A program made the translations under genes and the position numbers. Source: Candidatus Omnitrophota bacterium (GTDB lineage: Bacteria; Omnitrophota; Gorgyraeia; Duberdicusellales; 4484-171). Taken from it: a stretch of 64,000 bases of DNA. This document shows, piece after piece, positions 21,535 through 44,714 of this stretch (position 1 is its first letter; each line of letters starts with the position of its first letter). The DNA lies in assembly GCA_018818105.1 (NCBI GenBank), contig JAHISK010000055.1, positions 4,781 through 68,780 on the forward strand. The letters are read 5' to 3'. The notes under the pieces were generated by a model, which saw only the letters and a list, made by a program, of their open reading frames with translations, made no database searches and was not told the DNA's origin.

Positions 21535-21572
21535 TAAAAAAAAGCCGGGTTACCTTTTGAGGTAACCCGGCT
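21535..21572 (-). terminator. Intrinsic terminator / attenuator hairpin (perfect 12-bp stem AGCCGGGTTACC/GGTAACCCGGCT, loop UUUUGA, then U8) about 20 nt upstream of the giant-gene start codon
   Basis: Plus strand reads aaaaaaaagccgggttaccttttgaggtaacccggct. On the minus strand this is a hairpin followed by TTTTTTTT and then ATGCCGGAAGTAAAAAAGATATGGGC. Confidence 0.6.
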
Positions 21573-21599
21573 ATCCTGAATCAATTTTGTACCGAAAGA

Positions 21600-21740
21600 C
21601 GATAGATGTCCGTTCTCTACATCGCTCGGACGATAAACGTTCTTATACTCTCGTTTTTCGTCCTTCGTCTTACATCCTTCGTTACTAGGACCCGTGGCTT
21701 TGCGCCTCCCGATTACTCGAGATTTGCCATTTCTGAAAAA
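21600..21740 (-). ncRNA. Candidate c-di-GMP-I (GEMM) riboswitch aptamer in the 5' leader of the giant gene
   Basis: The minus-strand leader reads AAAUGGCAAAUCUCGA-GUAA-UCGGGAGGCGCAAAGCCACGGGUCC. This resembles the remembered Vc2 consensus GGCAAACC-stem-GNRA-stem-GGGACGCAAAGCC-nCGGG, including a 6-bp stem capped by a GNRA tetraloop. A terminator lies immediately downstream. Not run through a covariance model. Confidence 0.35.
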
Positions 21741-21920: not shown

Positions 21921-22065
21921 CAAATTCACCACCTAAAAAGATCCTCATATAACCATATCATAACCATGGTAGACGTCCCTAAAGGAGGGCCCTATAAAAA
22001 ATTTTAAAAATTTGAAAGAAAAACACCTTCTCATTCGTCTATTATATAAGAGGGTGAAATTCACA

Positions 22066-22617
22066 ATGAAAAACAGAAAAAAGAACAGATTGCTTGGATA
22101 TGATTATCGGCAATATGGCTATTATTTTGTAACCATTTGTAGCAACAATAGGATCAAATGGTTTGGAAATATTGAAAATAACCATATGGTTTTAAATCTA
22201 TCTGGGCAAATTGTTCGACAACAATTGCAATGGTTAGAAAAAAGGTATTCGTATATAAAATTAGATGAATACATTATTATGCCCAATCATATACATGGAA
22301 TAATAATTATAAAAAATTATGTAGGGAACGGTCGCGACCGTTCCCTACAACAAATAAAATCATTATCATCAATAATAGGCGCGTTTAAAACAACGTCGTC
22401 AAAATTAATCCATCGAAATAAATTATTAGAATTCAAATGGCAAAAATCATTTCATGATCATATAATCAGAAACGATAAATCATTACACCAAATCCGCGAA
22501 TATATTATAAATAACCCTCTGAATTGGAATAACGATGAAAATAATATTATTCCAAAATATAGTAAGGACGGTATCTCCAAAAAGCCCCTCCCGACAATAA
22601 AAAACCGGCTATTTTGA
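22066..22617 (+). mobile_element. RAYT / IS200-like HuH tyrosine transposase (Y1 transposase, TnpA_REP-like)
   Basis: HuH motif NHIHGII and catalytic tyrosine in IREYIINNP. Core reads YYFVTICSNNR. The start is chosen at the internal Met with an AGAGGGTGA ribosome-binding site; the track ORF starts at 22012. Confidence 0.65.
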
Positions 22618-27496: not shown

Positions 27497-27853
27497 TCAA
27501 CTATTTAATAAACCTCTCAGCATACTTGTAATTTCTCTAACAGCTAACCTTAACTCTAAATAACATTGTTCCTCTATCAAATTCTGTCTTTTTAAAACAT
27601 TAAGAACAGACGCACATTCTCTTGCAGAATCAGAAGAAATATCAAAATATCTATTCTTTTCTTTTTTAGATTTCTTACCATTTCCCTCTGCTATATTATT
27701 AGCAATAGATAATGCCGCTCTAATAAAATTATTACCAATAGAATATTTATAATCGATTTTTAATCGTTTATATATTTCAAATACTTTGTCTATAAAAACT
27801 AACGTCTTCTGATATACTTTTAAATTTTCAAAATCAAATCTAAACTCTTCCAT
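27497..27853 (-). CDS. Four-helix-bundle protein (23S rRNA intervening-sequence protein family, TIGR02436-like)
   Basis: YQKTLVFIDKVFEIYKRL...AALSIANNIAEGNGK...ECASVLNVL is typical of this family. Confidence 0.75.
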   Translation of the reverse strand: MEEFRFDFENLKVYQKTLVFIDKVFEIYKRLKIDYKYSIGNNFIRAALSIANNIAEGNGKKSKKEKNRYFDISSDSARECASVLNVLKRQNLIEEQCYLELRLAVREITSMLRGLLNS

Positions 27854-32604: not shown

Positions 32605-32616
32605 AATTATTTAAAA

Positions 32617-32645
32617 GGGTCAAGGGGCAGGGGGCAAGGGGCAAG
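32617..32645. repeat. GC-rich TTGMCCC/GGGKCAA-family repeat; left arm of the inverted pair flanking 4HB gene 32652..33041
   Basis: GGGTCAAGGGGCAGGGGGCAAGGGGCAAG; about 25/28 complementary to 33059-33087. Confidence 0.7.
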
Positions 32646-32651
32646 AAAAAT

Positions 32652-33041
32652 TTAAGATTTCAAAGACTTAATTAACCCCTTTAATAACCGGCCTACTTCT
32701 TGACGTCTATCATTAATCATTTTGTATATTTCAATATTTATATAACCTAAATCTTTAGAAAATAAAAAATACGTTTCCACTTCACCTAATGACCCTTTTG
32801 CTATCATCAAAAACTGAATATATTCTTTACGATACTGCCTTTCATACCCCTCTGCTATATTAGCAACAACCGATATAGCGGCCCTTCTCAATTGAGAAAC
32901 TAAACCATACTGTTCACTCCTAGGATAATCACGCGTAATTTTATATACTTCTAACGCCAATTCATATGCTTTCTTCCATACAATTAACTTCTTAAAACCC
33001 TTCTCCATTTCTTTCTCTCTATATTTTTCTCTCTTAACCAT
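32652..33041 (-). CDS. Four-helix-bundle protein (23S rRNA intervening-sequence protein family), second copy
   Basis: KKLIVWKKAYELALEVYKITRDYP...QLRRAAISVVANIAEGYERQ...MIAKGSLGEVETY. AAGGAAGAAG ribosome-binding site upstream. Confidence 0.8.
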   Translation of the reverse strand: MVKREKYREKEMEKGFKKLIVWKKAYELALEVYKITRDYPRSEQYGLVSQLRRAAISVVANIAEGYERQYRKEYIQFLMIAKGSLGEVETYFLFSKDLGYINIEIYKMINDRRQEVGRLLKGLIKSLKS

Positions 33042-36000
33042 CTCTATATTCTTCTTCCTTGACCCTTGCCCCCTGACCCTTGCCCCTATTTATAAATGCT
33101 GTAACAGAATCATACAGCACAGGGACGAACAAAAGCGTTAGGAACGTGGACGAAAGCAAACCTCCAATTACAGTAATAGCCATAGGAGCCCGTAATTCAG
33201 AACCTTCACCAATACCTATAGCAAGAGGTATCATTCCTAAGACAGTGGTGAAAGTCGTCATAAGAATAGGACGTAGCCGATGCTGACTGGCTTCTAAAAT
33301 AACTTCTTTTAAAGGCAAATTCTTTTTCTTTAAATGGTTCATATAATCCACTAAAACTATCCCGTTATTTACAACAATCCCGCCCAACATAATAGCGCCC
33401 AAAAGAGCGACTACATTCAAAGAAGTAGAAGTTAACTTCAACGCGACGCTTATGCCTATAAGAGAAAGAGGAACTGTAAACATAATAATAAACGGCTGCC
33501 ATAACGACTCAAATTGCGCCGCCATAATCATATAAATTAAAAGAATCGCTAATAAAAAAGCAAACTTCATGCTGTTAAATGATTCCCGCATACGAACGCT
33601 CTCACCAGAAAGGCCTACGTTATATCCTAACGGAATATTTAATTTCTCTACTATACCGGTTAACTGCGTATTAATTTCGCTAACACTGCGTCCATATAAA
33701 TTAGCATTAACAGATATTGTACGGCGCTGGTCTATCCGTTTAATTTCTGTGGGGCCTCTGCCTTTCGCAAGACGGGCAACCTGATAAAGAGGAACCATAA
33801 CATTCCTATACGCCGTCCTAATACCTAAAGATCTGATTCGGGATAAATTCTTTCTATCTTCTTCCTGCAAACGTACTCTAATATCTATAGGATGCGTTAC
33901 ATCCTCCTTAAACTTAGTAAAAACTCTTCCCTTAATGGCAGTATGCGCGGTTAACGCGATATCCTGAGTAGATAAACCTAACAAAGAAGCTTGGTCTTTA
34001 AGTATATATATTTTTGTTTCGGGAGAAGAAGGGACCCTATCATCTTCTATACTATAAACGCCTTTTATCGAAGATAGTTCTTTTTTTATCTGATCAGCTA
34101 CATCGCCCATCTGTAAAAGGTTCTCCCCTTTTATTTCAATTTGAATAGGTTTATCCTCAAACGCTTCCTTCAAAACACTTTCCTGCAAAACATACTCTAA
34201 CTGAGCGCCGATTAAATGTTTTTCTTTCATAATATCCCGCAAACGTTGAATAACGTCTTGCGTGGAAAACAACGAAACAGCTTCCTTTTCCTTTAATTCT
34301 TTATAGGAATACAGCTTCACCATAATTTCGCCCTCATAAGAAGCCAAAGTTTGCACCGCTTTTTCCGTGGGGTTATCTTTATCCGAACCTACTTTTATAC
34401 TAACATCTTTAACTTCTTTTATTTCATTGAGAAGAACTTCCTCCACCATACGCACAGCGTTATCAGTAACTTCTAAACTTGTTCCCGGCTCCATGGTAAG
34501 TTTTATTATAAACTGCCGCTGATCAAGCCGAGGCAAAAATTCGCTGGGCACAGTTTTTAAAATCACCAAGCTTAAAAGAAATAATCCTATAACAACAAAT
34601 ACAAGAATCGCTTTATTATCTAAAGTTTTTGATAAAAGACGGCGGTATAAATTATCAATTCCATTAAAAAGGAGATCAACTTTTGCTTGGCCGTCTTTGC
34701 TTTCTTTAATTCCACCGCCTAAAGAAGAAAGCATCGGCACCAACATCAACGCTATCAATAACGACGAAACCAAAGAAAAGGTTACCGTAAACGCCAATTG
34801 CTTAAAAAGCTGTCCGGCTATACCGGAAAGAAACATCATCGGAAAAAATACGCACACTGTTGTGAGAGTGGAAGAGATAATTGCTCCTTTCATCTGAAAA
34901 GACGCCTGAGACACAAGCGATAACGCTTCTTGCTTTGAGAGTTTTTTGTCCTGTTTTGATCTTTCCTGCTGCCGGCGAAAAATATTTTCAAGAACAACAA
35001 TAGAGTTATCCACTAACATTCCTACTCCTAATGCCAACCCTCCTAAAGAAATCATGTTCAAAGAAATATTCCTGGAAAACATCAATATAAACACACCCAT
35101 AATTGATATAGGAATAGCTGTAGCAATAATTAAAGAAATCTTAAGGTTCCTTAAAAAAACGAGTAAAACTAGAAAAGCCAAAACCCCGCCGCCTATGGCA
35201 GCGTTCCTAACTCCTTTTATCGAATTCGCGACATACACCGACTCATCATAAGCAATATCCAACTTTACGTCTAAAGATGGATTTTTATTCATTCGATACA
35301 CTTCTTCTTTAACCCTCTCACAAACGTCTATTACATTAGCGCCAGACTGTCTCTTAATTGAAATAGATATGTTTTCAACACCATTATGGCGGGAAATACT
35401 TTCTTTTTCTTTAGCTACATTTTTTACCTGAGCGATATCACTTAGCCGAACTAACCGGGCAGTTTTCTCCTGAAGCTCATCCTTAATGCCAAGTTGGCGT
35501 TCTCTCTGCTCTTCTTCAGTTTCAGGAACATCCACTAAAACTGTTAACTCACTGATTTCATCTAACGTCTCAAACTCACCTATTGTTCTGACCAAATGCT
35601 CATAAAAACTTCCCTTTATCGACCCCGCGGGATAATTAATATTTGATTTTTTTATTACCGAGCCTAAATCCAACAAAGAAAGGCCTGAAGCCTGTAGCCG
35701 TGACTGATCAACCTCTATTAGAATCTCCCGCCCAACTCCTCCTGTAATAACCGCGGCGGCAACACCTTTTAACTTTTCTAAATCATCTTTCATTTGCCGC
35801 TCACAAACTTCCCTCAATTCTAACAAAGACTCTTTTCCCGTCACGCTTAACACAATAACCGGTTTCTCAAAGGGATTATACTTCATAACAATCGGTTCAC
35901 CGCAATCCCTCGGAAGGCGTTCCTTAACTAAATCTATTTTTTCACGCACCTCCAAAGCGGCTAAATCCATGTTCGTTCCCCAGTCAAAACGCACCATTAC

Positions 36001-36291: not shown

Positions 36292-36304
36292 AAAAATATT
36301 TTGT

Positions 36305-36662
36305 AGGGTCAAGGGGCAGGGGTCATGGGTCAAAGAATTAGAAAGCTAACCAATCCTTTCACCAAAAACCTAATTTTATATCTAAAAACGAAACTAAATA
36401 CCCCTTATTACAACTTAATATCTATTTTAAAGATAAAAACAAATATTGAAAGATATTTTTATCTCTTACCCCATTTTCTTATCTTGATTTATCTTTTTCT
36501 ATCTCCCCTCTTCATCTATGGACTATGGTCTATCGACTATGGACGAATTATTCTCCCTTCTCCCCTTTCTCTAACTTTGCTTTCTCCTTAACCTAAAACT
36601 TAAAACCATTTTTCCTTGCCCCTTGACCCTTCTTCTCTTAATTCTTCCTTGACCCATGACCC
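36305..36662. repeat. Inverted pair of TTGMCCC-family repeats (36305-36334 and 36612-36662) enclosing about 270 bp with no convincing gene
   Basis: GGGTCAAGGGGCAGGGGTCATGGGTCAAAG ... CCTTGCCCCTTGACCC...CCTTGACCCATGACCCAT. The interior contains ctatggac x3. Confidence 0.55.
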
Positions 36663-36780
36663 ATATCATTTACCATTTATCATTTATCATTTTAAATTAT
36701 TATATATTTTTCCTCTTAAGCAAATGCTAATTTTAAAATGTTAATTGGTAAATTTAAAATTTCTATCCCTTGACCCTCTT
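36647..36780. repeat. About 150-bp dispersed repeat element, copy A, with (CATTTAC/T) x3 tract; it abuts the stop codon of gene 36781..38631 and lies upstream of the RND locus
   Basis: More than 90% identical to 44555-44710 outside the heptad tract. Both ends carry TTGACCC boxes. Confidence 0.8.
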
Positions 36781-38631
36781 TTACATCTGCTCCACCATCT
36801 CCACATACTCCTGCCCCCAATCTTTCACTAAATCACCAAAATTATCCGAAATAAAACTTTTTAATTCGTCAGGGTCTTCATTAATAGGAATGCTTACTTC
36901 ACCAAAACTTTGATTATCCACTATCTTTTCTAGAGCTTGAACTTTTAAACTTAACATCCTAAGATAAACTTTACCTAATTCTGTATCTAAATCAATTAAA
37001 TCTTGCTGATACGTTTCTTGAAACTTATCAAACATATCTAAAACTTTACCATTTTCACCCCACTCTAAATAATTCTGAGCTTGACTACGCATAAAATTAG
37101 CGTCCGCGGCAGCAGCATCAACCTCTGACGCGGTTATTGTGAAATCTATATCATCTACAAAAGTAATCTCAATCAAATAAATATCTTCTTTATTCAAAGC
37201 GGCCGCGGATAATCCATAACTTGCTCTAGCAAACATTTCAACTCCGGCTTTATTCATTGTTTTATATTCCTGAATAACATCATAAATCGTACCGGCAACA
37301 TCCTCAGTTGTATGGAAAAAATCCCGTAACTGCTCAACATTCATATCCTGAACTTGATAAAAACATACATACCTTTCCTGCAAAAGACTATCCCCTATCT
37401 CAAACACCACTTTATCTCCGTCTTTATACATATCATTAATCCAATCCTGATTAAATTCATTAACTTCCAAACCTATGGAATCCATCCCTCCCTCAACAGT
37501 ATATGATATATATTTACCTGAATAAACCGATTCCCCGGTAGCTGAATCAAGACTAAGCTCCCAAGCCTTCACATGTAAACTTCCTTTCCACTCATGAACC
37601 CAACTGGCATATTCAGTACCATCATCATCAATAACCCCCTGTTCAGCTATGCCGAACGCATTATGTTTTTCATAAGTTCCTTCAAAATAATTTATCACTT
37701 TAACTAAATGATGATTCTCCCAAAGATAGGTTATCTTTAACGCCCCAAACCTATCCCGCGTCTCATACATTTCGCTTCCCCACTTATCAAACTTGGTAAC
37801 ATCACCGTCAACCATTTCATACTGAAACATTTTTCCGTCTTTTAAAATAGGATTATCCTCCTCATCAACAACTAAAATACTTATCTTCTCAATTCTCAAT
37901 AAACTATCCCCTTCCTGCCGCCAATAAGCTACTAATTCTCCATCCTTAGACCCTTTTCTTTCTTCTATGGGACTGCCGTTATTATAGCGTTTCCAAACTT
38001 GAGTGGCAAGATTATGCTCCCAATATCCTGTTCCCGACTGATCATATTCATAGATATGCGTAATATTATGATGGCTATCATTCCTTTCCATAAGATTATT
38101 TCTCCAGTACCGTTCATATTCTAAAACATCACCCCATTCATTCGTCACCCTACATTCAATTACTTTACTACCATTCTGTTCCCCTACCGCATACCAATCA
38201 TATTTCCTTATCGCGAGTTTCTCATCAAGACGCCATCCATTAGCCTCAAATGTTTCCGCGTCCATCTTAAACGCTTTTTTACCGCCTCTAAACCGAATAA
38301 CATCTCCATTCCGTTCAATCCGCAACTCAGGTTTACCATTAAAATAGAAAGTTTTGTTACCATATTTATCAACAATTATTGAAGGATATTTTGACGCGAT
38401 TTGAGGAATTTGAACGTTTAAAGGATAAGCCACTTCAGCATAATTACTTATTTGTTTCCACTGCGGTATTATACGGGGATCACCGGGATCAGTATGAAAA
38501 GCGGACCCGGGAAGAACCATCATGTCTTGAGCAAAACTTAGTAAAGGAAAAATAACGATAAAGACAAAAAGTATTCCTTTAAAATACTTATTGAAATTAA
38601 TTCCTTTTATAATTTTTTCTATATGATTCAT
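36781..38631 (-). CDS. Secreted protein of unknown function (616 aa from ATG 38631; signal peptide ILFVFIVIFPLLSFA)
   Basis: AAGGAAGAAG ribosome-binding site before ATG 38631; the track start 38781 overlaps the upstream gene. W/Y/E-rich beta-type sequence, no motif recognised. Confidence 0.6.
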   Translation of the reverse strand: MNHIEKIIKGINFNKYFKGILFVFIVIFPLLSFAQDMMVLPGSAFHTDPGDPRIIPQWKQISNYAEVAYPLNVQIPQIASKYPSIIVDKYGNKTFYFNGKPELRIERNGDVIRFRGGKKAFKMDAETFEANGWRLDEKLAIRKYDWYAVGEQNGSKVIECRVTNEWGDVLEYERYWRNNLMERNDSHHNITHIYEYDQSGTGYWEHNLATQVWKRYNNGSPIEERKGSKDGELVAYWRQEGDSLLRIEKISILVVDEEDNPILKDGKMFQYEMVDGDVTKFDKWGSEMYETRDRFGALKITYLWENHHLVKVINYFEGTYEKHNAFGIAEQGVIDDDGTEYASWVHEWKGSLHVKAWELSLDSATGESVYSGKYISYTVEGGMDSIGLEVNEFNQDWINDMYKDGDKVVFEIGDSLLQERYVCFYQVQDMNVEQLRDFFHTTEDVAGTIYDVIQEYKTMNKAGVEMFARASYGLSAAALNKEDIYLIEITFVDDIDFTITASEVDAAAADANFMRSQAQNYLEWGENGKVLDMFDKFQETYQQDLIDLDTELGKVYLRMLSLKVQALEKIVDNQSFGEVSIPINEDPDELKSFISDNFGDLVKDWGQEYVEMVEQM

Positions 38632-41919: not shown

Positions 41920-42390
41920 TATTATCTCCAATCTCCCATCTATAATCTGCCATCTAAAAAAAAGCCGGGTCACCCAACTTTTCTGTTCGGCAACCCGGCT
42001 CCTAAATACGTAGAAACGCGACTAAAAATACTTTAGCAATCACATTTCCACTATCTACGCCGTGGCTTTCCCCTCTTACTCTAAACGAATAAGAAGAGCT
42101 TTTTCGTAGAAAGTCAAAATTAACTTATTCCCTTCAAAGAACCTTTATTTCACCCACTTACCACCTCGTAGGTGGTAAGTATCTGCTATCTGAAATCTCC
42201 CATCTCCCATCTAAAAAAAAGAAACCGGGCCACCTTCTATTCGGCAGCCCGGCTAAACTAAATGTAGAAATGCGCATGTATCTAAGAGAAAAACCTCCCC
42301 TCATCAACTGCTACCTTCTACTCCCGTGGCTTTCCCCTCTTACTCTAAACGAATAAGAAGAGCTTTTCGTAGAAAGAAAACTAAGAAAAA
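41920..42390 (-). repeat. Two tandem ~264-bp leader units, each ending in a GCCGGG hairpin terminator (41955-42000 and 42212-42253), upstream of secreted-protein gene 38760..41789
   Basis: Conserved block ccgtggctttcccctcttactctaaacgaataagaagagctttt(t)cgtagaaag at 42060-42114 and 42324-42376. AATCTCCCATCT repeats sit before each A-tract plus hairpin. Confidence 0.65.
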
Positions 42391-42711
42391 AATAGCCCGA
42401 CTAAATAACTATTTTCCTCTATTATAATAAAGAACTGTTAAATTCCTAATTACCCTAATTGTTAAATACTTATTGAAAATATTGATCTTATGCCTCCCCT
42501 TTGGCATGTTACACATATATACCATATATTTACCATATTTTTCAAGCTTTTCTAGCATTTTTTTTCAAAAAATTCATCTTCTTTCATAACTATTTGATAA
42601 TCAACCAGTAATGAACCTCAAAAATAGAGAATTTTTATATTTATTTTCCCGTATCTTTAAATAAAGCATATTTTTCACGCATATTAGCCTCTTCGGTATA
42701 AAATAGTTCCC

Positions 42712-42745
42712 TGCCCCCCTTTTTCAAAAAAAAAAAGGGGGGGGA
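42712..42745. repeat. Homopolymer hairpin CCCCCCTTTTT-CAAAAAA-AAAAAGGGGGGGG, about 70 nt upstream of the HTH-MNT promoter
   Basis: C6 and G8 tracts are unusual in this AT-rich context. Confidence 0.5.
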
Positions 42746-42809
42746 GGAGATAGTTGTGGTTTTTCCATCTTTCACGATATCTACAAACATTCACCCAACA
42801 GAAAATTAC

Positions 42810-42864
42810 TTGACAAACACCCTAATGTAAGATATATTTTACACATGTAAACAAAAATTTACAT
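42810..42864 (+). promoter_or_regulatory. Near-consensus sigma70 promoter (TTGACA-17-TATATT) plus palindromic operator ATGTAAA-N6-TTTACAT, upstream of the HTH-MNT/HEPN/PIN operon
   Basis: ttgacaaacaccctaatgtaagatatattttacacATGTAAAcaaaaaTTTACATaattATG. Confidence 0.5.
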
Positions 42865-42868
42865 AATT

Positions 42869-43498
42869 ATGCAAAAACTACTCGACAATATCTTAAATAC
42901 TCCGGTAAAAGTGAAAATATTACGCTTGCTCACCTACAGGCCCCCCACTTACTTAGTCTCTGGACGAGAAATTGCCCGATTAATACATGTTAGCGCGCCC
43001 ACCGCGCATGCCGCGCTAAAAGAATTATATAATACTGATATTTTGCAATTAGAAATCATTAGCAGAAACCATATCTATCGGCTAAACATAAAGAATAGAA
43101 CCGTTAAAGATATTATTATTCCTATGTTTAAAAAAGAGGAGTCTCTAAAACAGGACATTATTACTTTTATAAAAAAACAGATTACATCTAACAATATAAA
43201 AAAGAACATTATTTCCCTCATTCTCTACGGAAGCTTTCAAACAGAAACAACCACTGAAAAAAGCGACATCGATATAGCAATAATTGCTGAGTCTAGCGCG
43301 GCTACACAAAAAATCGAAAAAACATTCAGTAAAGAGATAACAGATAAATTTCATGATTATTTCGGTATTCATCTCGATATTTACATAAAAACTAAAGAAG
43401 AATTTATAGAGCGGCTCAAGAAAAATTTACCGCCAGTTTCGACATTAATAAAATCTTACTATATAATTTATGGTAAAGATCCTTTGGATTTAAAATAA
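42869..43498 (+). CDS. Winged-HTH + minimal nucleotidyltransferase (MNT, Pol-beta superfamily) protein; antitoxin-like partner of HEPN
   Basis: N-terminal wHTH (LVSGREIARLIHVSAPTAHAALKEL). NTase motif LILYGSFQTETTTEKSDIDIAII. Confidence 0.65.
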   Translation: MQKLLDNILNTPVKVKILRLLTYRPPTYLVSGREIARLIHVSAPTAHAALKELYNTDILQLEIISRNHIYRLNIKNRTVKDIIIPMFKKEESLKQDIITFIKKQITSNNIKKNIISLILYGSFQTETTTEKSDIDIAIIAESSAATQKIEKTFSKEITDKFHDYFGIHLDIYIKTKEEFIERLKKNLPPVSTLIKSYYIIYGKDPLDLK

Positions 43499-43499
43499 A

Positions 43500-43907
43500 A
43501 TGTCTCCTAAAAAAATTAAAATACGACAAGAAGAAAAATCAGCAGCGGCAGATTACCTTAAAAAAGCTGAAGATAATCATGCTGAAATGATACTTGCGTT
43601 ACAAAATAAAAATTATAACGCGGTAGGAACATTAGCCATACAACGCGCTATCTCATCCGCCGATGCTATCTGTGTTTATGAAAAAGGAATAAGATCTATC
43701 TCTGAAGTCCATCTTGATGTATGTGAACTTTTAAAATCTCTGCCCCTTCCAGACGCGAAAGATAAAAGTAATATTTTAAAACGGATTATTGCCAAAAAAA
43801 ATATCATCCAATATGAAAGGCGAAGTATTTACGAAAAAGAAGCACATGAAATAGCTAAATCCGCTAATAGACTTTATCAATGGGTTATTATAGTGCTGAC
43901 AAAATAA
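43500..43907 (+). CDS. HEPN-domain protein; candidate RNase toxin of the HEPN/MNT pair
   Basis: 135 aa, all-alpha, R-x7-H-like motif in ERRSIYEKEAHE. A 1-nt gap to the MNT gene indicates translational coupling. Confidence 0.55.
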   Translation: MSPKKIKIRQEEKSAAADYLKKAEDNHAEMILALQNKNYNAVGTLAIQRAISSADAICVYEKGIRSISEVHLDVCELLKSLPLPDAKDKSNILKRIIAKKNIIQYERRSIYEKEAHEIAKSANRLYQWVIIVLTK

Positions 43908-43954
43908 CATTTAAATATATTGCGAAAAATATACCCTTGCATTACAATAAAAAC

Positions 43955-44545
43955 ATGACAAAAAAAATAATAAAGATCATCCTCGACACCAGCATATTCG
44001 TTAACCCTGACTCCCGGCACTTTTTCGGCAATAAACCCCATGAGGCCCTCGATAATTTCTTAAGTTTAGTTAAAAAAACAAATCACATAACCTGTTATAT
44101 CCCCCCTTCTGTATATGAAGAACTGATGAAATTCATGGAAAAGCCTATTTCTGCTAAAAAAGCCATACTTATCAATAAAAAACCGCCAGCTTCTTATAAA
44201 ACGCCGATACCAGCCCTTTTTCTATATGAATTTATTGAAGAAATGCGGCAGCGCTTAAATAAAGGCCTGCGAATTGCCGAAAAGTACGCCCGTAAAAGTT
44301 CCGGGGGCAGTAAAACAACCCCTCACGATAGCATCATTAAAAGCCTTCGTGAAGAATACCGAGTAGCTTTACGGGAAGGAATTCTCGACAGTAAAGAGGA
44401 TTTTGACTTAATTCTTCTTGCTTATGAGCTCGGCGCTCACTTATCTACTTCTGATAACGGCCTCATAAAATGGGCGCAAAAACTAGGCATCCCCTGTCTA
44501 TCCGCGGAAGAACTGAAAGAAATAATCAATCAGACTGAAGACTAA
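43955..44545 (+). CDS. PIN-domain nuclease-like protein (196 aa from ATG 43955)
   Basis: IILDTSIF... N-terminal acidic motif, ...YEEL..., and DFDLILLAYELGAHLSTSD C-terminal acidic motif. The track start 43880 overlaps the HEPN gene. Confidence 0.5.
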   Translation: MTKKIIKIILDTSIFVNPDSRHFFGNKPHEALDNFLSLVKKTNHITCYIPPSVYEELMKFMEKPISAKKAILINKKPPASYKTPIPALFLYEFIEEMRQRLNKGLRIAEKYARKSSGGSKTTPHDSIIKSLREEYRVALREGILDSKEDFDLILLAYELGAHLSTSDNGLIKWAQKLGIPCLSAEELKEIINQTED

Positions 44546-44554
44546 ATCTTTTCT

Positions 44555-44710
44555 TCGTTGACCCATGCCCCATATAATTTACCATTTACCATTTACCATT
44601 TACCATTTACCATTTACCATTTTAAATTATTAAATATTTTTCCTCTTAAGCAAATGATAATTTTAAAATGTTAATTGGTAAATTTAAAATTTCTGACCCT
44701 TGACCCTTTT
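44555..44710. repeat. About 150-bp dispersed repeat element, copy B, with (CATTTAC) x5 tract, between the convergent PIN and CNNM genes
   Basis: Aligns with 36647-36780; differs in heptad copy number and about 6 substitutions. Confidence 0.8.
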
Positions 44711-44714
44711 TATA

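What the first reader, a model, noticed from the sequence alone, without database searches (positions are those of the whole stretch)
42810..44545. Three-gene wHTH-nucleotidyltransferase / HEPN / PIN module with consensus promoter and palindromic operator
The MNT protein (GS...DID motif) carries its own N-terminal winged HTH. It is followed after a 1-nt gap by a HEPN-domain protein, and 47 nt later by a PIN-domain protein of about 196 aa. A near-perfect TTGACA-17-TATATT promoter and an ATGTAAA-N6-TTTACAT palindrome lie between -10 and the start codon, the typical autoregulated toxin-antitoxin layout. HEPN/MNT pairs are known TA or abortive-infection modules in which MNT AMPylates or neutralises HEPN. 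An additional co-transcribed PIN nuclease and a DNA-binding domain on the MNT make this a less common three-component arrangement. The module is bounded on the right by the 150-bp repeat element.
Basis: partly seen in the sequence, partly recalled or inferred. Interest (0 to 1): 0.5.

Follow-up and report, generated by a model that had tools for sequence, protein, structure and literature searches.

The report
Self-regulated toxin-antitoxin pair beside HARP gene
The supposed three-gene module is a self-repressing two-gene nucleotidyltransferase/HEPN cassette of the toxin-antitoxin type that has landed just upstream of an unrelated, conserved RNase gene (a protein-only RNase P homologue), so it is a fairly ordinary mobile cassette plus a neighbour.

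Summary
These are a 209-aa wHTH-nucleotidyltransferase (g1), a 135-aa HEPN protein (g2) after a 1-nt gap, a 196-aa PIN protein (g3) 47 nt later, a TTGACA-17-TATATT promoter and the palindrome. The three-component reading fails.

In 43 complete g1 copies from other genomes, g2 follows directly in 41 and g3 never does. The surrounding genes are otherwise unrelated. g3 is a HARP (RNA-free RNase P, PIN_5, also called "RNA ligase partner"). It is 60-79% identical across Omnitrophota and keeps its own synteny (HARP convergent with CNNM genes) in 5 of 6 independent loci. None of those loci has MNT or HEPN nearby. HARP also keeps its own promoter, which is conserved in position and lies inside the 47-nt gap. 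Comparison with genome CP070797 shows g1-g2 as a roughly 1.26-kb insertion.

The operator is richer than reported. Two tandem 20-bp palindromes sit over and just after the -10 box, and their positions are conserved in about half of 46 loci.

g1 has an exact GSx10DxD motif. g2 has a HEPN fold of the PF05168 type but lacks the canonical RφxxxHxY motif, so a type VII (AMPylation) mechanism is inferred, not shown. g1 matches the untested PADLOC candidate PDC-M05A. I rate this a new member of a known kind, of modest interest.

The parts
42650..43915 (+). Approximately 1.26-kb insertion relative to the closest genome without the cassette (CP070797, L051). The boundaries are approximate.
   Evidence: blastn and alignment of the window against L051. 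Homology on the left ends near 42625-42650 and resumes at the HARP promoter near 43915. The corresponding stretch in L051 is only about 110 nt.
42810..42838 (+). Sigma-70-type promoter of the cassette: TTGACA, 17 nt, TATATT.
   Evidence: The promoter scan scores it 11 of 12. A TTGAC -35 element is present upstream of g1 relatives in 46 of 49 regions.
42825..42844 (+). Operator O1: ATGTAAG-N6-TTTACAC, a 20-bp palindrome that spans the -10 box.
   Evidence: The half-sites at +16 and +28 from TTGACA recur at the same offsets in many loci.
42845..42864 (+). Operator O2: ATGTAAA-N6-TTTACAT, a perfect 7-6-7 palindrome between the -10 box and the start codon.
   Evidence: half-sites at +36 and +48. 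The half-site sequence differs between subfamilies and between paralogues on one contig.
42869..43498 (+). g1: wHTH (aa 12-72), linker helix (aa 77-107) and minimal nucleotidyltransferase (aa 114-202) with GSx10DxD. Predicted repressor and antitoxin.
   Evidence: Pfam and NCBIfam. AF2 model with Foldseek: the N-terminal half matches ArsR/SmtB repressors and the C-terminal half matches MntA 7bxo and HI0073 1no5. PADLOC PDC-M05A at E 1.6e-13. Motif position.
43500..43907 (+). g2: HEPN-domain protein of the PF05168 (HEPN-T) type. Predicted toxin or effector.
   Evidence: 37 of 37 family members hit PF05168. AF2 pLDDT is 90, and the top Foldseek hits are 1ufb, 2hsb, 1wol, 3o10 and 1o3u. g2 follows g1 in 41 of 43 complete copies, with gaps of -3 to +8 nt.
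43920..43948 (+). HARP's own promoter, TTGCGA-17-TACAAT, ending 6 nt before the ATG. It belongs to the neighbouring gene, not to the cassette.
   Evidence: TTGCnn-17-TAnAAT ends 6-9 nt before the ATG in the window, L051, L052 and L054; L056 has a TTTACT-16-TACAAT site at the same place.
43955..44545 (+). g3: HARP (RNA-free RNase P homologue, PIN_5, TIGR03875 'RNA ligase partner'). An independent, syntenic chromosomal gene.
   Evidence: Pfam 196.5 bits and TIGR03875 197 bits. PDB HARP structures 7e8k at E 4e-46, plus 7e8j, 8ssf, 7f3e and 7og5. Catalytic residues D145, D149 and D167 correspond to PbHARP D151, D155 and D173. Synteny.
44551..44711 (.). Dispersed repeat of about 160 nt with a (CCATTTA)n array, lying between HARP and the convergent CNNM gene. 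It is not a boundary of the cassette.
   Evidence: It matches 36642-36781 at 90-93%. The HARP-CNNM gap is 13 nt in L051 and 169 nt here.

Best explanation
Positions 42810-43907 hold a self-contained, horizontally mobile two-gene cassette, wHTH-MNT (g1) followed by HEPN (g2). It is inserted between the leader region of a divergent gene and the promoter of an unrelated chromosomal HARP gene (g3).

Shown: the g1-g2 pairing, its autonomy from neighbouring genes, the insertion, the conserved promoter and operator layout, the folds, and the intact GSx10DxD motif.

Inferred:
1. g1 dimers bind the two tandem 20-bp palindromes O1 (over the -10 box) and O2 (just downstream) through the ArsR/MarR-like wHTH, and so repress the bicistronic, translationally coupled g1-g2 operon.
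2. The MNT domain neutralises the HEPN protein, most likely by nucleotidylylation as in type VII HepT/MntA. The invariant Y105, at the end of helix 3, is the most plausible acceptor.
3. When g1 activity, g1 level or ATP falls, unmodified HEPN arrests growth, probably through RNA.

HARP is transcribed from its own promoter. Because no terminator separates g2 from g3, it may also receive read-through transcription from the cassette, but it is not a component of the cassette.
For: Pairing: 41 of 43 complete g1 copies are followed by g2 within -3 to +8 nt.

Autonomy: no other neighbour cluster occurs in more than 6 of 50 loci. Some contigs carry two copies (L011; L040 and L041). In L007 three classic MNT/HEPN pairs follow directly. 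The loci come from MAGs labelled Omnitrophota, Aminicenantes, Elusimicrobia and others, at 40-63% identity.

Insertion: shown by comparison with CP070797.

g3 independence: there is no PIN_5 in any cassette locus (best tblastn E 1.1). HARP-CNNM synteny holds without the cassette, and the HARP promoter is conserved.

Operator: half-sites sit at fixed offsets and are about 12-fold enriched. The same wHTH and operator layout also head Zeta-toxin-like fusions. The paralogues L040 and L041 differ in both half-site and recognition helix.

Enzyme: GSx10DxD is exact and D170 is invariant. The structure matches MntA and HI0073.

Precedent: the Shewanella MNT antitoxin represses its own promoter at palindromes (PMC4621449), and MntA oligo-AMPylates a Tyr next to the HEPN motif (PMC13000451). 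The MNT-first gene order marks the antitoxin (PMC3710099).
Against: g2 is not a DUF86/HepT protein. At the canonical site (the end of helix 3) it reads K100-N-I-I-Q104-Y105-E106-R-R108 rather than RφxxxHxY. Its only R..H pair (R65-x5-H71) lies in the insert between helices 2 and 3 (motif position as given in PMC3710099). RNase activity and Tyr-AMPylation are therefore unproven.

g2 has no PADLOC hit and no sequence relative in the PDB. No toxicity, DNA-binding or modification data exist for any member of this family.

The residue mapping rests on the secondary structure of a predicted model, not on a 3-D superposition. Taxon labels of several TPA MAGs are unreliable, so the apparent cross-phylum spread may be overstated.
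Confidence: 0.72

Rival explanations
1. g1, g2 and g3 form one three-component toxin-antitoxin or abortive-infection operon in which the PIN nuclease is a second effector.
For: All three genes are on the same strand. The g2-g3 gap is only 47 nt with no terminator-like site. Three assemblies of this lineage share the arrangement. PIN domains are common TA toxins.
Against: None of 38 informative cassette loci has a PIN_5 gene. None of 6 independent HARP loci has MNT or HEPN. g3 is an orthologue of structurally and biochemically characterised HARPs. The HARP promoter is retained in the gap. The cassette is an insertion relative to CP070797.
Confidence: 0.05
2. g1 and g2 form a non-toxic, two-subunit regulatory nucleotidyltransferase, like HI0073/HI0074 or the kanamycin nucleotidyltransferase. 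HEPN would be the substrate-binding subunit, and the wHTH would couple enzyme state to transcription.
For: g2 lacks the canonical HEPN RNase motif. Its best structural matches are HEPN-T proteins and sacsin HEPN rather than HepT. g1 matches HI0073. PMC3710099 describes such domesticated MNT-HEPN pairs. Conservation is unusually high: g2 is 50-76% identical across loci and database relatives.
Against: The genomic contexts vary, copies are multiple and divergent within a genome, and the cassette co-locates with classic MNT/HEPN arrays. It also shares its wHTH and operator head with Zeta-toxin-like fusions. Tight self-repression is typical of addiction and defence modules. PMC3710099 notes that HEPN proteins without the motif still scored as toxins in a genome-wide screen.
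Confidence: 0.18
3. The roles are reversed. The nucleotidyltransferase is the toxin, as in AbiEii and MenT, and HEPN is its antitoxin.
For: NTase toxins exist (AbiEii, MenT; PMC10435456). This was the original prediction for MNT-HEPN pairs, as cited in PMC3710099.
Against: The DNA-binding autoregulatory domain and the 5' gene position are both on the MNT. Both are hallmarks of antitoxins (PMC3710099, PMC4621449). g1 resembles MntA and not DUF1814-type NTases.
Confidence: 0.05

Closest known systems
[quoted passage not shown]
   Same: The MNT gene comes first and the HEPN gene abuts it. The NTase motif GSx10DxD is present. The promoter has palindromes near the -10 box and is repressed by the MNT protein (PMC4621449). 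g1's C-terminal half matches MntA 7bxo_A structurally.
   Different: g1 carries a dedicated N-terminal wHTH, which MntA lacks. g2 is of the PF05168 (HEPN-T) type and not DUF86/HepT. It lacks RφxxxHxY, and its TM-score to HepT 5yep_C is only 0.56.
PADLOC candidate defence system PDC-M05 (nucleotidyltransferase + HEPN)
   Same: g1 matches model PDC-M05A over its full length (aa 3-193, E 1.6e-13). The two-gene architecture is as described in PMC12988326.
   Different: g2 matches no PADLOC model at E <= 1. PDC-M05 is reported as enriched in Archaea, and its antiviral role is unconfirmed (PMC12988326).
HI0073/HI0074 and other classic MNT/HEPN(PF05168) dyads
   Same: A small MNT plus a four-helix HEPN-T partner. 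There are structural matches to 1no5 (HI0073) and to 2hsb, 1o3u and 1wol. An alternative conserved His lies in the helix 2-helix 3 insert, as reported for AF0298-like HEPN-T proteins (PMC3710099).
   Different: Classic MNTs are about 100-110 aa and have no wHTH (for example L007 7133-7459). hhalign of the g2 family against classic HEPN from L007 aligns only helix 1.
AbiE (AbiEi/AbiEii) type IV TA / abortive infection
   Same: A wHTH repressor that binds inverted repeats in its own promoter, combined with a nucleotidyltransferase in a two-gene module.
   Different: In AbiE the wHTH is on the antitoxin and the NTase (DUF1814) is the toxin on a separate protein, and there is no HEPN. This comparison rests on general knowledge and was not tested here.
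HARP (homologue of Aquifex RNase P, Aq_880; PIN_5; TIGR03875), for g3 only
   Same: Both family cut-offs are passed. g3 aligns end to end with solved HARPs at E 1e-38 to 1e-46. The catalytic Asp triad is conserved.
   Different: No Rnl3 RNA ligase is nearby, either among the window ORFs scanned or within 5-6 kb in six other loci. The host is a mesophilic candidate phylum, not one of the extremophile groups listed in PMC12153264.

Membership tests
Type VII HepT/MntA TA | MNT antitoxin with the GSx10DxD nucleotidyltransferase motif | tested here: met
   G121-S122-x10-D133-x-D135 is present in g1. The motif is invariant in 26 aligned relatives.
Type VII HepT/MntA TA | HEPN toxin of the DUF86/HepT type with RφxxxHxY at the end of helix 3 | tested here: not met
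   No DUF86 hit was found. Only PF05168 is hit. The canonical site reads KNIIQYERR, and the R65..H71 pair lies in the helix 2-helix 3 insert (PMC3710099).
Type VII HepT/MntA TA | MNT gene directly upstream of the HEPN gene, and co-transcribed | tested here: met
   The gap is 1 nt here and -3 to +8 nt in 41 of 43 relatives. Co-transcription is inferred, not measured.
Type VII HepT/MntA TA | Oligo-AMPylation of a HEPN tyrosine neutralises toxicity | not testable with these tools
   An invariant Y105 exists next to the degenerate motif. There are no biochemical data.
MNT/HEPN (PF05168, HEPN-T) dyads / PADLOC PDC-M05 | HEPN fold and PF05168 membership of the partner protein | tested here: met
   g2 alone scores 16.9 bits, below the cut-off of 22. 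However, 37 of 37 family members hit PF05168 (best E 5.5e-9), and the fold search returns HEPN proteins at probability 1.00 with TM-scores of 0.64-0.77.
MNT/HEPN (PF05168, HEPN-T) dyads / PADLOC PDC-M05 | Both subunits match the PDC-M05 profiles | tested here: inconclusive
   g1 matches PDC-M05A at E 1.6e-13 over its full length. g2 matches no PADLOC model.
   PIN_5 follows the cassette in 0 of 38 loci with at least 1 kb beyond g2. MNT or HEPN is present in 0 of 6 HARP loci.
HARP / PIN_5 / TIGR03875 (g3) | Scores above the curated family cut-offs | tested here: met
   PF08745 scores 196.5 bits against a cut-off of 27. TIGR03875 scores 197 bits against 95.3.
HARP / PIN_5 / TIGR03875 (g3) | Catalytic Asp triad (PbHARP D151, D155 and D173) | tested here: met
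   g3 residues D145, D149 and D167 align with the triad (residues from PMC9051087).
HARP / PIN_5 / TIGR03875 (g3) | Pre-tRNA 5'-leader cleavage; oligomeric assembly | not testable with these tools
   Some bacterial HARPs are inactive on pre-tRNA in vitro (PMC12153264).
HARP / PIN_5 / TIGR03875 (g3) | Co-localised Rnl3 RNA ligase (frequent but not defining) | tested here: not met
   No ligase domain was found in the window ORFs scanned (22-64 kb) or within 5-6 kb in L051-L056. The rest of the genome was not examined.

The most novel reading that the evidence does not exclude
The wHTH-MNT/HEPN-T pair may be a mechanistically distinct branch of enzyme-antitoxin (type VII-like) systems. Its HEPN partner has lost the canonical RφxxxHxY site. 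It would act through the invariant R65/H71 insert together with the K100-N-x2-Q-Y-E-x-R108 cluster, and g1 would control it by nucleotidylylation of Y105 or of S66/S68. In this lineage, read-through from the self-repressed cassette promoter would also tie expression of the cell's protein-only RNase P homologue to the state of the TA system.
Probability: 0.12. Interest if true: 0.55.

Novelty: new member of a known kind. Interest (0 to 1): 0.3.

Why it matters
The main value is as a correction. A tidy-looking three-gene "module" turns out to be a mobile two-gene cassette next to a housekeeping-type gene, and comparative context shows this cleanly.

Two modest positives remain. First, the cassette family has an unusually well-defined and phylogenetically conserved dual-operator promoter, and its DNA-binding domain is recognisable. 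That makes it a convenient model for how MNT antitoxins autoregulate, because Shewanella MntA binds DNA without any recognisable DNA-binding domain. Second, its HEPN partner lacks the canonical RNase motif yet is very strongly conserved. This bears on the open question of how motif-less HEPN-T proteins act.

Separately, HARP appears to be a conserved, syntenic gene across Omnitrophota with no adjacent RNA ligase. The published distribution surveys I could read do not mention this.

Tried and rejected
1. A PDB sequence search with the g2 family profile gave only a spurious hit at E 1.3. The fold search was needed instead.
2. hhalign of the g2 family against the classic PF05168 HEPN proteins of L007 aligned only helix 1 at low probability. 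The canonical motif therefore could not be mapped by sequence. I mapped it from the model's secondary structure and the description in PMC3710099, which is weaker than a 3-D superposition.
3. A strong promoter-like site inside g1 (TCGACA-17-TATAAT, 43439-43467, 11 of 12) could have driven g2 separately. It is present in only 2 of 42 loci, so I treat it as chance in AT-rich coding sequence.
4. I tested for tRNA-linked integration of the cassette. Only L001 has a tRNA (Gly-CCC) directly upstream, so there is no general association.
5. The exact-sequence look-up of the window's HARP protein (P0121) found nothing on record. I used relatives instead.
6. PADLOC gave no hit for g2 and only a marginal hit for g3.
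7. Rfam at the gathering threshold found nothing in 41.8-44.8 kb. The E-value search gave only sub-threshold hits.
Full report
**1. What is in the sequence**

- g1 lies at 42869-43498 (209 aa).
- g2 lies at 43500-43907 (135 aa), one nucleotide after the g1 stop codon.
- g3 runs from the ATG at 43955 to 44545 (196 aa), 47 nt after the g2 stop codon.

A longer 221-aa reading of g3 starts at 43880 and overlaps g2. Some gene callers chose it. However, homologues are 187-206 aa and the identical NCBI protein is 196 aa.

The promoter TTGACA (42810)-17-TATATT matches 11 of 12 consensus positions. The palindrome ATGTAAA-N6-TTTACAT is exact at 42845-42864.

**2. Domain checks**

g1 passes the Pfam cut-off for NTP_transf_2 (E 9e-9). 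Its N-terminal HTH hits are weak. An AlphaFold2 model built on 26 relatives (pLDDT 87) shows three parts: a winged helix at aa 12-72, a long linker helix at aa 77-107, and a minimal nucleotidyltransferase at aa 114-202. In Foldseek the N-terminal half matches ArsR/SmtB-type repressors. The C-terminal half matches the type VII antitoxin MntA (7bxo_A) and HI0073 (1no5). No solved chain covers both halves. The motif G121-S122-x10-D133-x-D135 is exact and invariant in relatives.

g2 alone falls below the Pfam HEPN cut-off (16.9 bits against 22). All 37 aligned family members nevertheless hit PF05168 (best E 5.5e-9). Its model (pLDDT 90) retrieves HEPN proteins as its top hits: TT1696, AF_0298, ST0689, sacsin HEPN and TM0613, with TM-scores of 0.64-0.77. 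HepT scores only 0.56. The HEPN call therefore holds, of the HEPN-T (PF05168) type.

g3 is PIN_5 (E 4e-58) and passes TIGR03875, "RNA ligase partner protein".

**3. The two-gene cassette is the conserved unit**

A scan of species-representative genomes returned 50 loci with g1 relatives. Most are Omnitrophota. Others are labelled Aminicenantes, Elusimicrobia, WOR-3 and more.

Of 43 g1 copies with a complete C-terminus, 41 are followed by a g2 homologue, with a gap of -3 to +8 nt. Thirty-eight of those loci extend at least 1 kb beyond g2. None contains a PIN_5 gene, and the best tblastn E-value is 1.1.

Clustering all neighbouring ORFs showed that no other gene family occurs in more than 6 of the 50 loci. 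Some contigs carry two divergent copies (L011; L040 and L041). In L007 three classic short MNT/HEPN pairs follow directly.

The full-length wHTH-MNT architecture is common. It gives 175 clusters at 50% identity with E <= 1e-10, most aligned end to end. g1 also matches the PADLOC candidate model PDC-M05A over its full length. PDC-M05 is described as a nucleotidyltransferase plus HEPN pair whose antiviral role is unconfirmed (PMC12988326).

**4. g3 is an independent gene, a HARP**

g3 aligns end to end with solved "RNA-free ribonuclease P" structures: 7e8k at E 4e-46, and also 7e8j, 8ssf, 7f3e and 7og5. Its residues D145, D149 and D167 align with the catalytic D151, D155 and D173 of PbHARP.

Homologues 60-79% identical fill the list of the 120 best hits, and every hit that carries an organism name is from Omnitrophota. 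In five of six independent loci, including two complete genomes, HARP is followed convergently by the same two CNNM/CBS genes as in the window. None of the six has MNT or HEPN within 5-6 kb, and none has an RNA ligase.

A promoter-like element of the form TTGCnn-17-TAnAAT ends 6-9 nt before the HARP ATG in the window (43920-43948) and in L051, L052 and L054. L056 has a TTTACT-16-TACAAT site at the same place, and a TAnAAT box can be read at the same place in L053 and L055. This suggests a leaderless or near-leaderless mRNA and shows that the 47-nt "gap" is HARP's own promoter.

blastn against the nearest genome that lacks the cassette (CP070797, L051) aligns the divergent upstream gene and its duplicated leader up to about 42625-42650. 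Alignment resumes at the HARP promoter near 43915. The stretch between is about 110 nt in L051 and about 1.26 kb in the window. The cassette is therefore an insertion.

Three assemblies of this same lineage share the arrangement, so it is real but lineage-specific.

**5. The regulatory region is richer than reported**

The pattern search shows a second, imperfect copy of the palindrome directly abutting the first. O1 is ATGTAAG-N6-TTTACAC at 42825-42844 and spans the -10 box. O2 lies at 42845-42864.

I examined 49 regions upstream of g1 relatives, and 46 contain TTGAC. When these are anchored on the -35 element, TGTWAR and YTWACA half-sites pile up at +16, +28, +36 and +48, exactly as in the window. 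The mean is 2.8 half-sites per locus against 0.24 in shuffles. A second subfamily keeps the same 20-bp periodicity further downstream.

The half-site sequence varies between subfamilies. The two paralogues on one contig differ in both half-site (CCAAACAC against CCTAACA) and recognition helix (CVSVTHGSLK against SVPSAHESLK). This is anecdotal, but it fits cognate recognition.

The same wHTH and operator layout head fusions to a Zeta-toxin-like kinase domain in L042-L045. Autoregulation by the g1 wHTH is thus well supported by comparison, although binding is not shown.

**6. Mechanism**

Established knowledge on the related systems is as follows:
- In MNT-HEPN dyads the 5' MNT is the antitoxin (PMC3710099).
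- Shewanella MNT represses its own promoter at palindromes, although it has no recognisable DNA-binding domain (PMC4621449).
- MntA oligo-AMPylates a Tyr adjacent to RφxxxH in HepT (PMC13000451).

g1 has the catalytic motif, so neutralisation by nucleotidylylation is the most likely mode.

g2 differs from HepT. According to PMC3710099 the Rx4-6H motif sits at the end of helix 3. In the g2 model that place (helix 86-104 plus the following loop) reads K100-N-I-I-Q104-Y105-E106-R-R108, and K100, N101, Q104, Y105, E106 and R108 are invariant. The only R..H pair (R65-S-x-S-x-x-H71; H71 invariant, R65 conserved in at least 90% of relatives) lies in the insert between helices 2 and 3. That is where AF0298-like HEPN-T proteins carry an "alternative" histidine.

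RNase activity is therefore uncertain. Y105 is a plausible acceptor by analogy only. The rival reading, a non-toxic two-subunit nucleotidyltransferase, keeps appreciable weight (about 0.18).

**7. Things that led nowhere**

These comprise a PDB sequence search for g2, hhalign against classic HEPN, an internal promoter-like site that is not conserved (2 of 42 loci), a test for tRNA association (1 locus), and PADLOC for g2.

**8. Verdict**

- Observation: confirmed.
- Interpretation: partly supported. The autoregulated MNT/HEPN pair stands, and the three-component module does not.
- Novelty: a new member of a known, catalogued but uncharacterised kind.
- Interest: modest (0.3). It rests mainly on the clean dual-operator architecture, the motif-less but highly conserved HEPN partner, and the side observation about HARP in Omnitrophota.

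Noticed in passing
window 43955-44545; L051-L056: HARP (protein-only RNase P homologue) looks like a conserved, syntenic gene across Omnitrophota. Homologues are 60-79% identical, it is usually convergent with CNNM genes, and no Rnl3 ligase lies within 5-6 kb. Its -10 box ends 6-9 nt before the ATG, which suggests a leaderless mRNA. A 2025 survey (PMC12153264) lists bacterial HARPs as restricted to a few mostly extremophile orders and does not mention this phylum. No paper in the library links Omnitrophota with HARP. Whether these genomes also have RNase P RNA was not tested.
   Followed up: partly
window 3-21743 (- strand): A stop-free reading frame of 7,247 codons runs off the left end of the window. 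Its first Met is at 21515, so the ORF exceeds 7,170 aa. It is preceded by a c-di-GMP-I riboswitch at 21558-21738 (54.7 bits, above the gathering score).
   Followed up: partly
window 41923-42373 (- strand): A tandem duplicated leader of about 260 nt lies upstream of the 1048-aa gene, which has no Pfam hit. Each unit gives a sub-threshold hit to the c-di-GMP-I clan (about 21 bits) and carries a G+C-rich hairpin followed by a T run; only the one at 42254-42223 was called by the terminator scan. Both units are also present in CP070797 (L051 5319-5715). This may be a pair of divergent tandem riboswitches.
   Followed up: partly
window 44551-44711 and 36642-36781: A dispersed intergenic repeat of about 160 nt (90-93% identical) contains a (CCATTTA)n array and TTGACCC-like heptamers. 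Related heptamer arrays lie at 32605-32644, 33052-33102 and 36294-36333. The HARP-CNNM gap is 13 nt in CP070797 and 169 nt here, so this copy is an insertion.
   Followed up: partly
L053 5644-7085: In another Omnitrophota contig an AbiEii gene, with an adjacent 210-aa gene, sits between HARP and the CNNM genes. The same neighbourhood has therefore collected a different TA-type cassette.
   Followed up: no
L042 158-1063; L043-L045: Proteins of about 295-300 aa share the g1 wHTH and the same promoter and operator layout. They carry a Zeta-toxin-like P-loop kinase domain in place of the MNT, and no HEPN gene follows them.
   Followed up: partly
L040/L041 (one contig, MHHG01000031.1): Two paralogous cassettes lie about 6.5 kb apart. 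They differ in operator half-site (CCAAACAC against CCTAACA) and in recognition helix, which would insulate them from cross-repression.
   Followed up: partly
window 27497-27853 and 32652-33041 (- strand): Two genes of the 23S_rRNA_IVP (bAvd-like) four-helix-bundle family are interleaved with RND efflux pump genes.
   Followed up: no
window 42700-42760: A hairpin made of homopolymer runs (C6 T5 ... A11 G8) lies in the left part of the inserted segment, about 60-100 nt upstream of the cassette's -35 element. Its function is unknown. It may act as a bidirectional terminator or insulator.
   Followed up: no
window 22012-22617: An ORF with a marginal hit to the IS200-like Y1 transposase family (23.4 bits against a cut-off of 23) lies next to the riboswitch and giant-gene region.
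   Followed up: no
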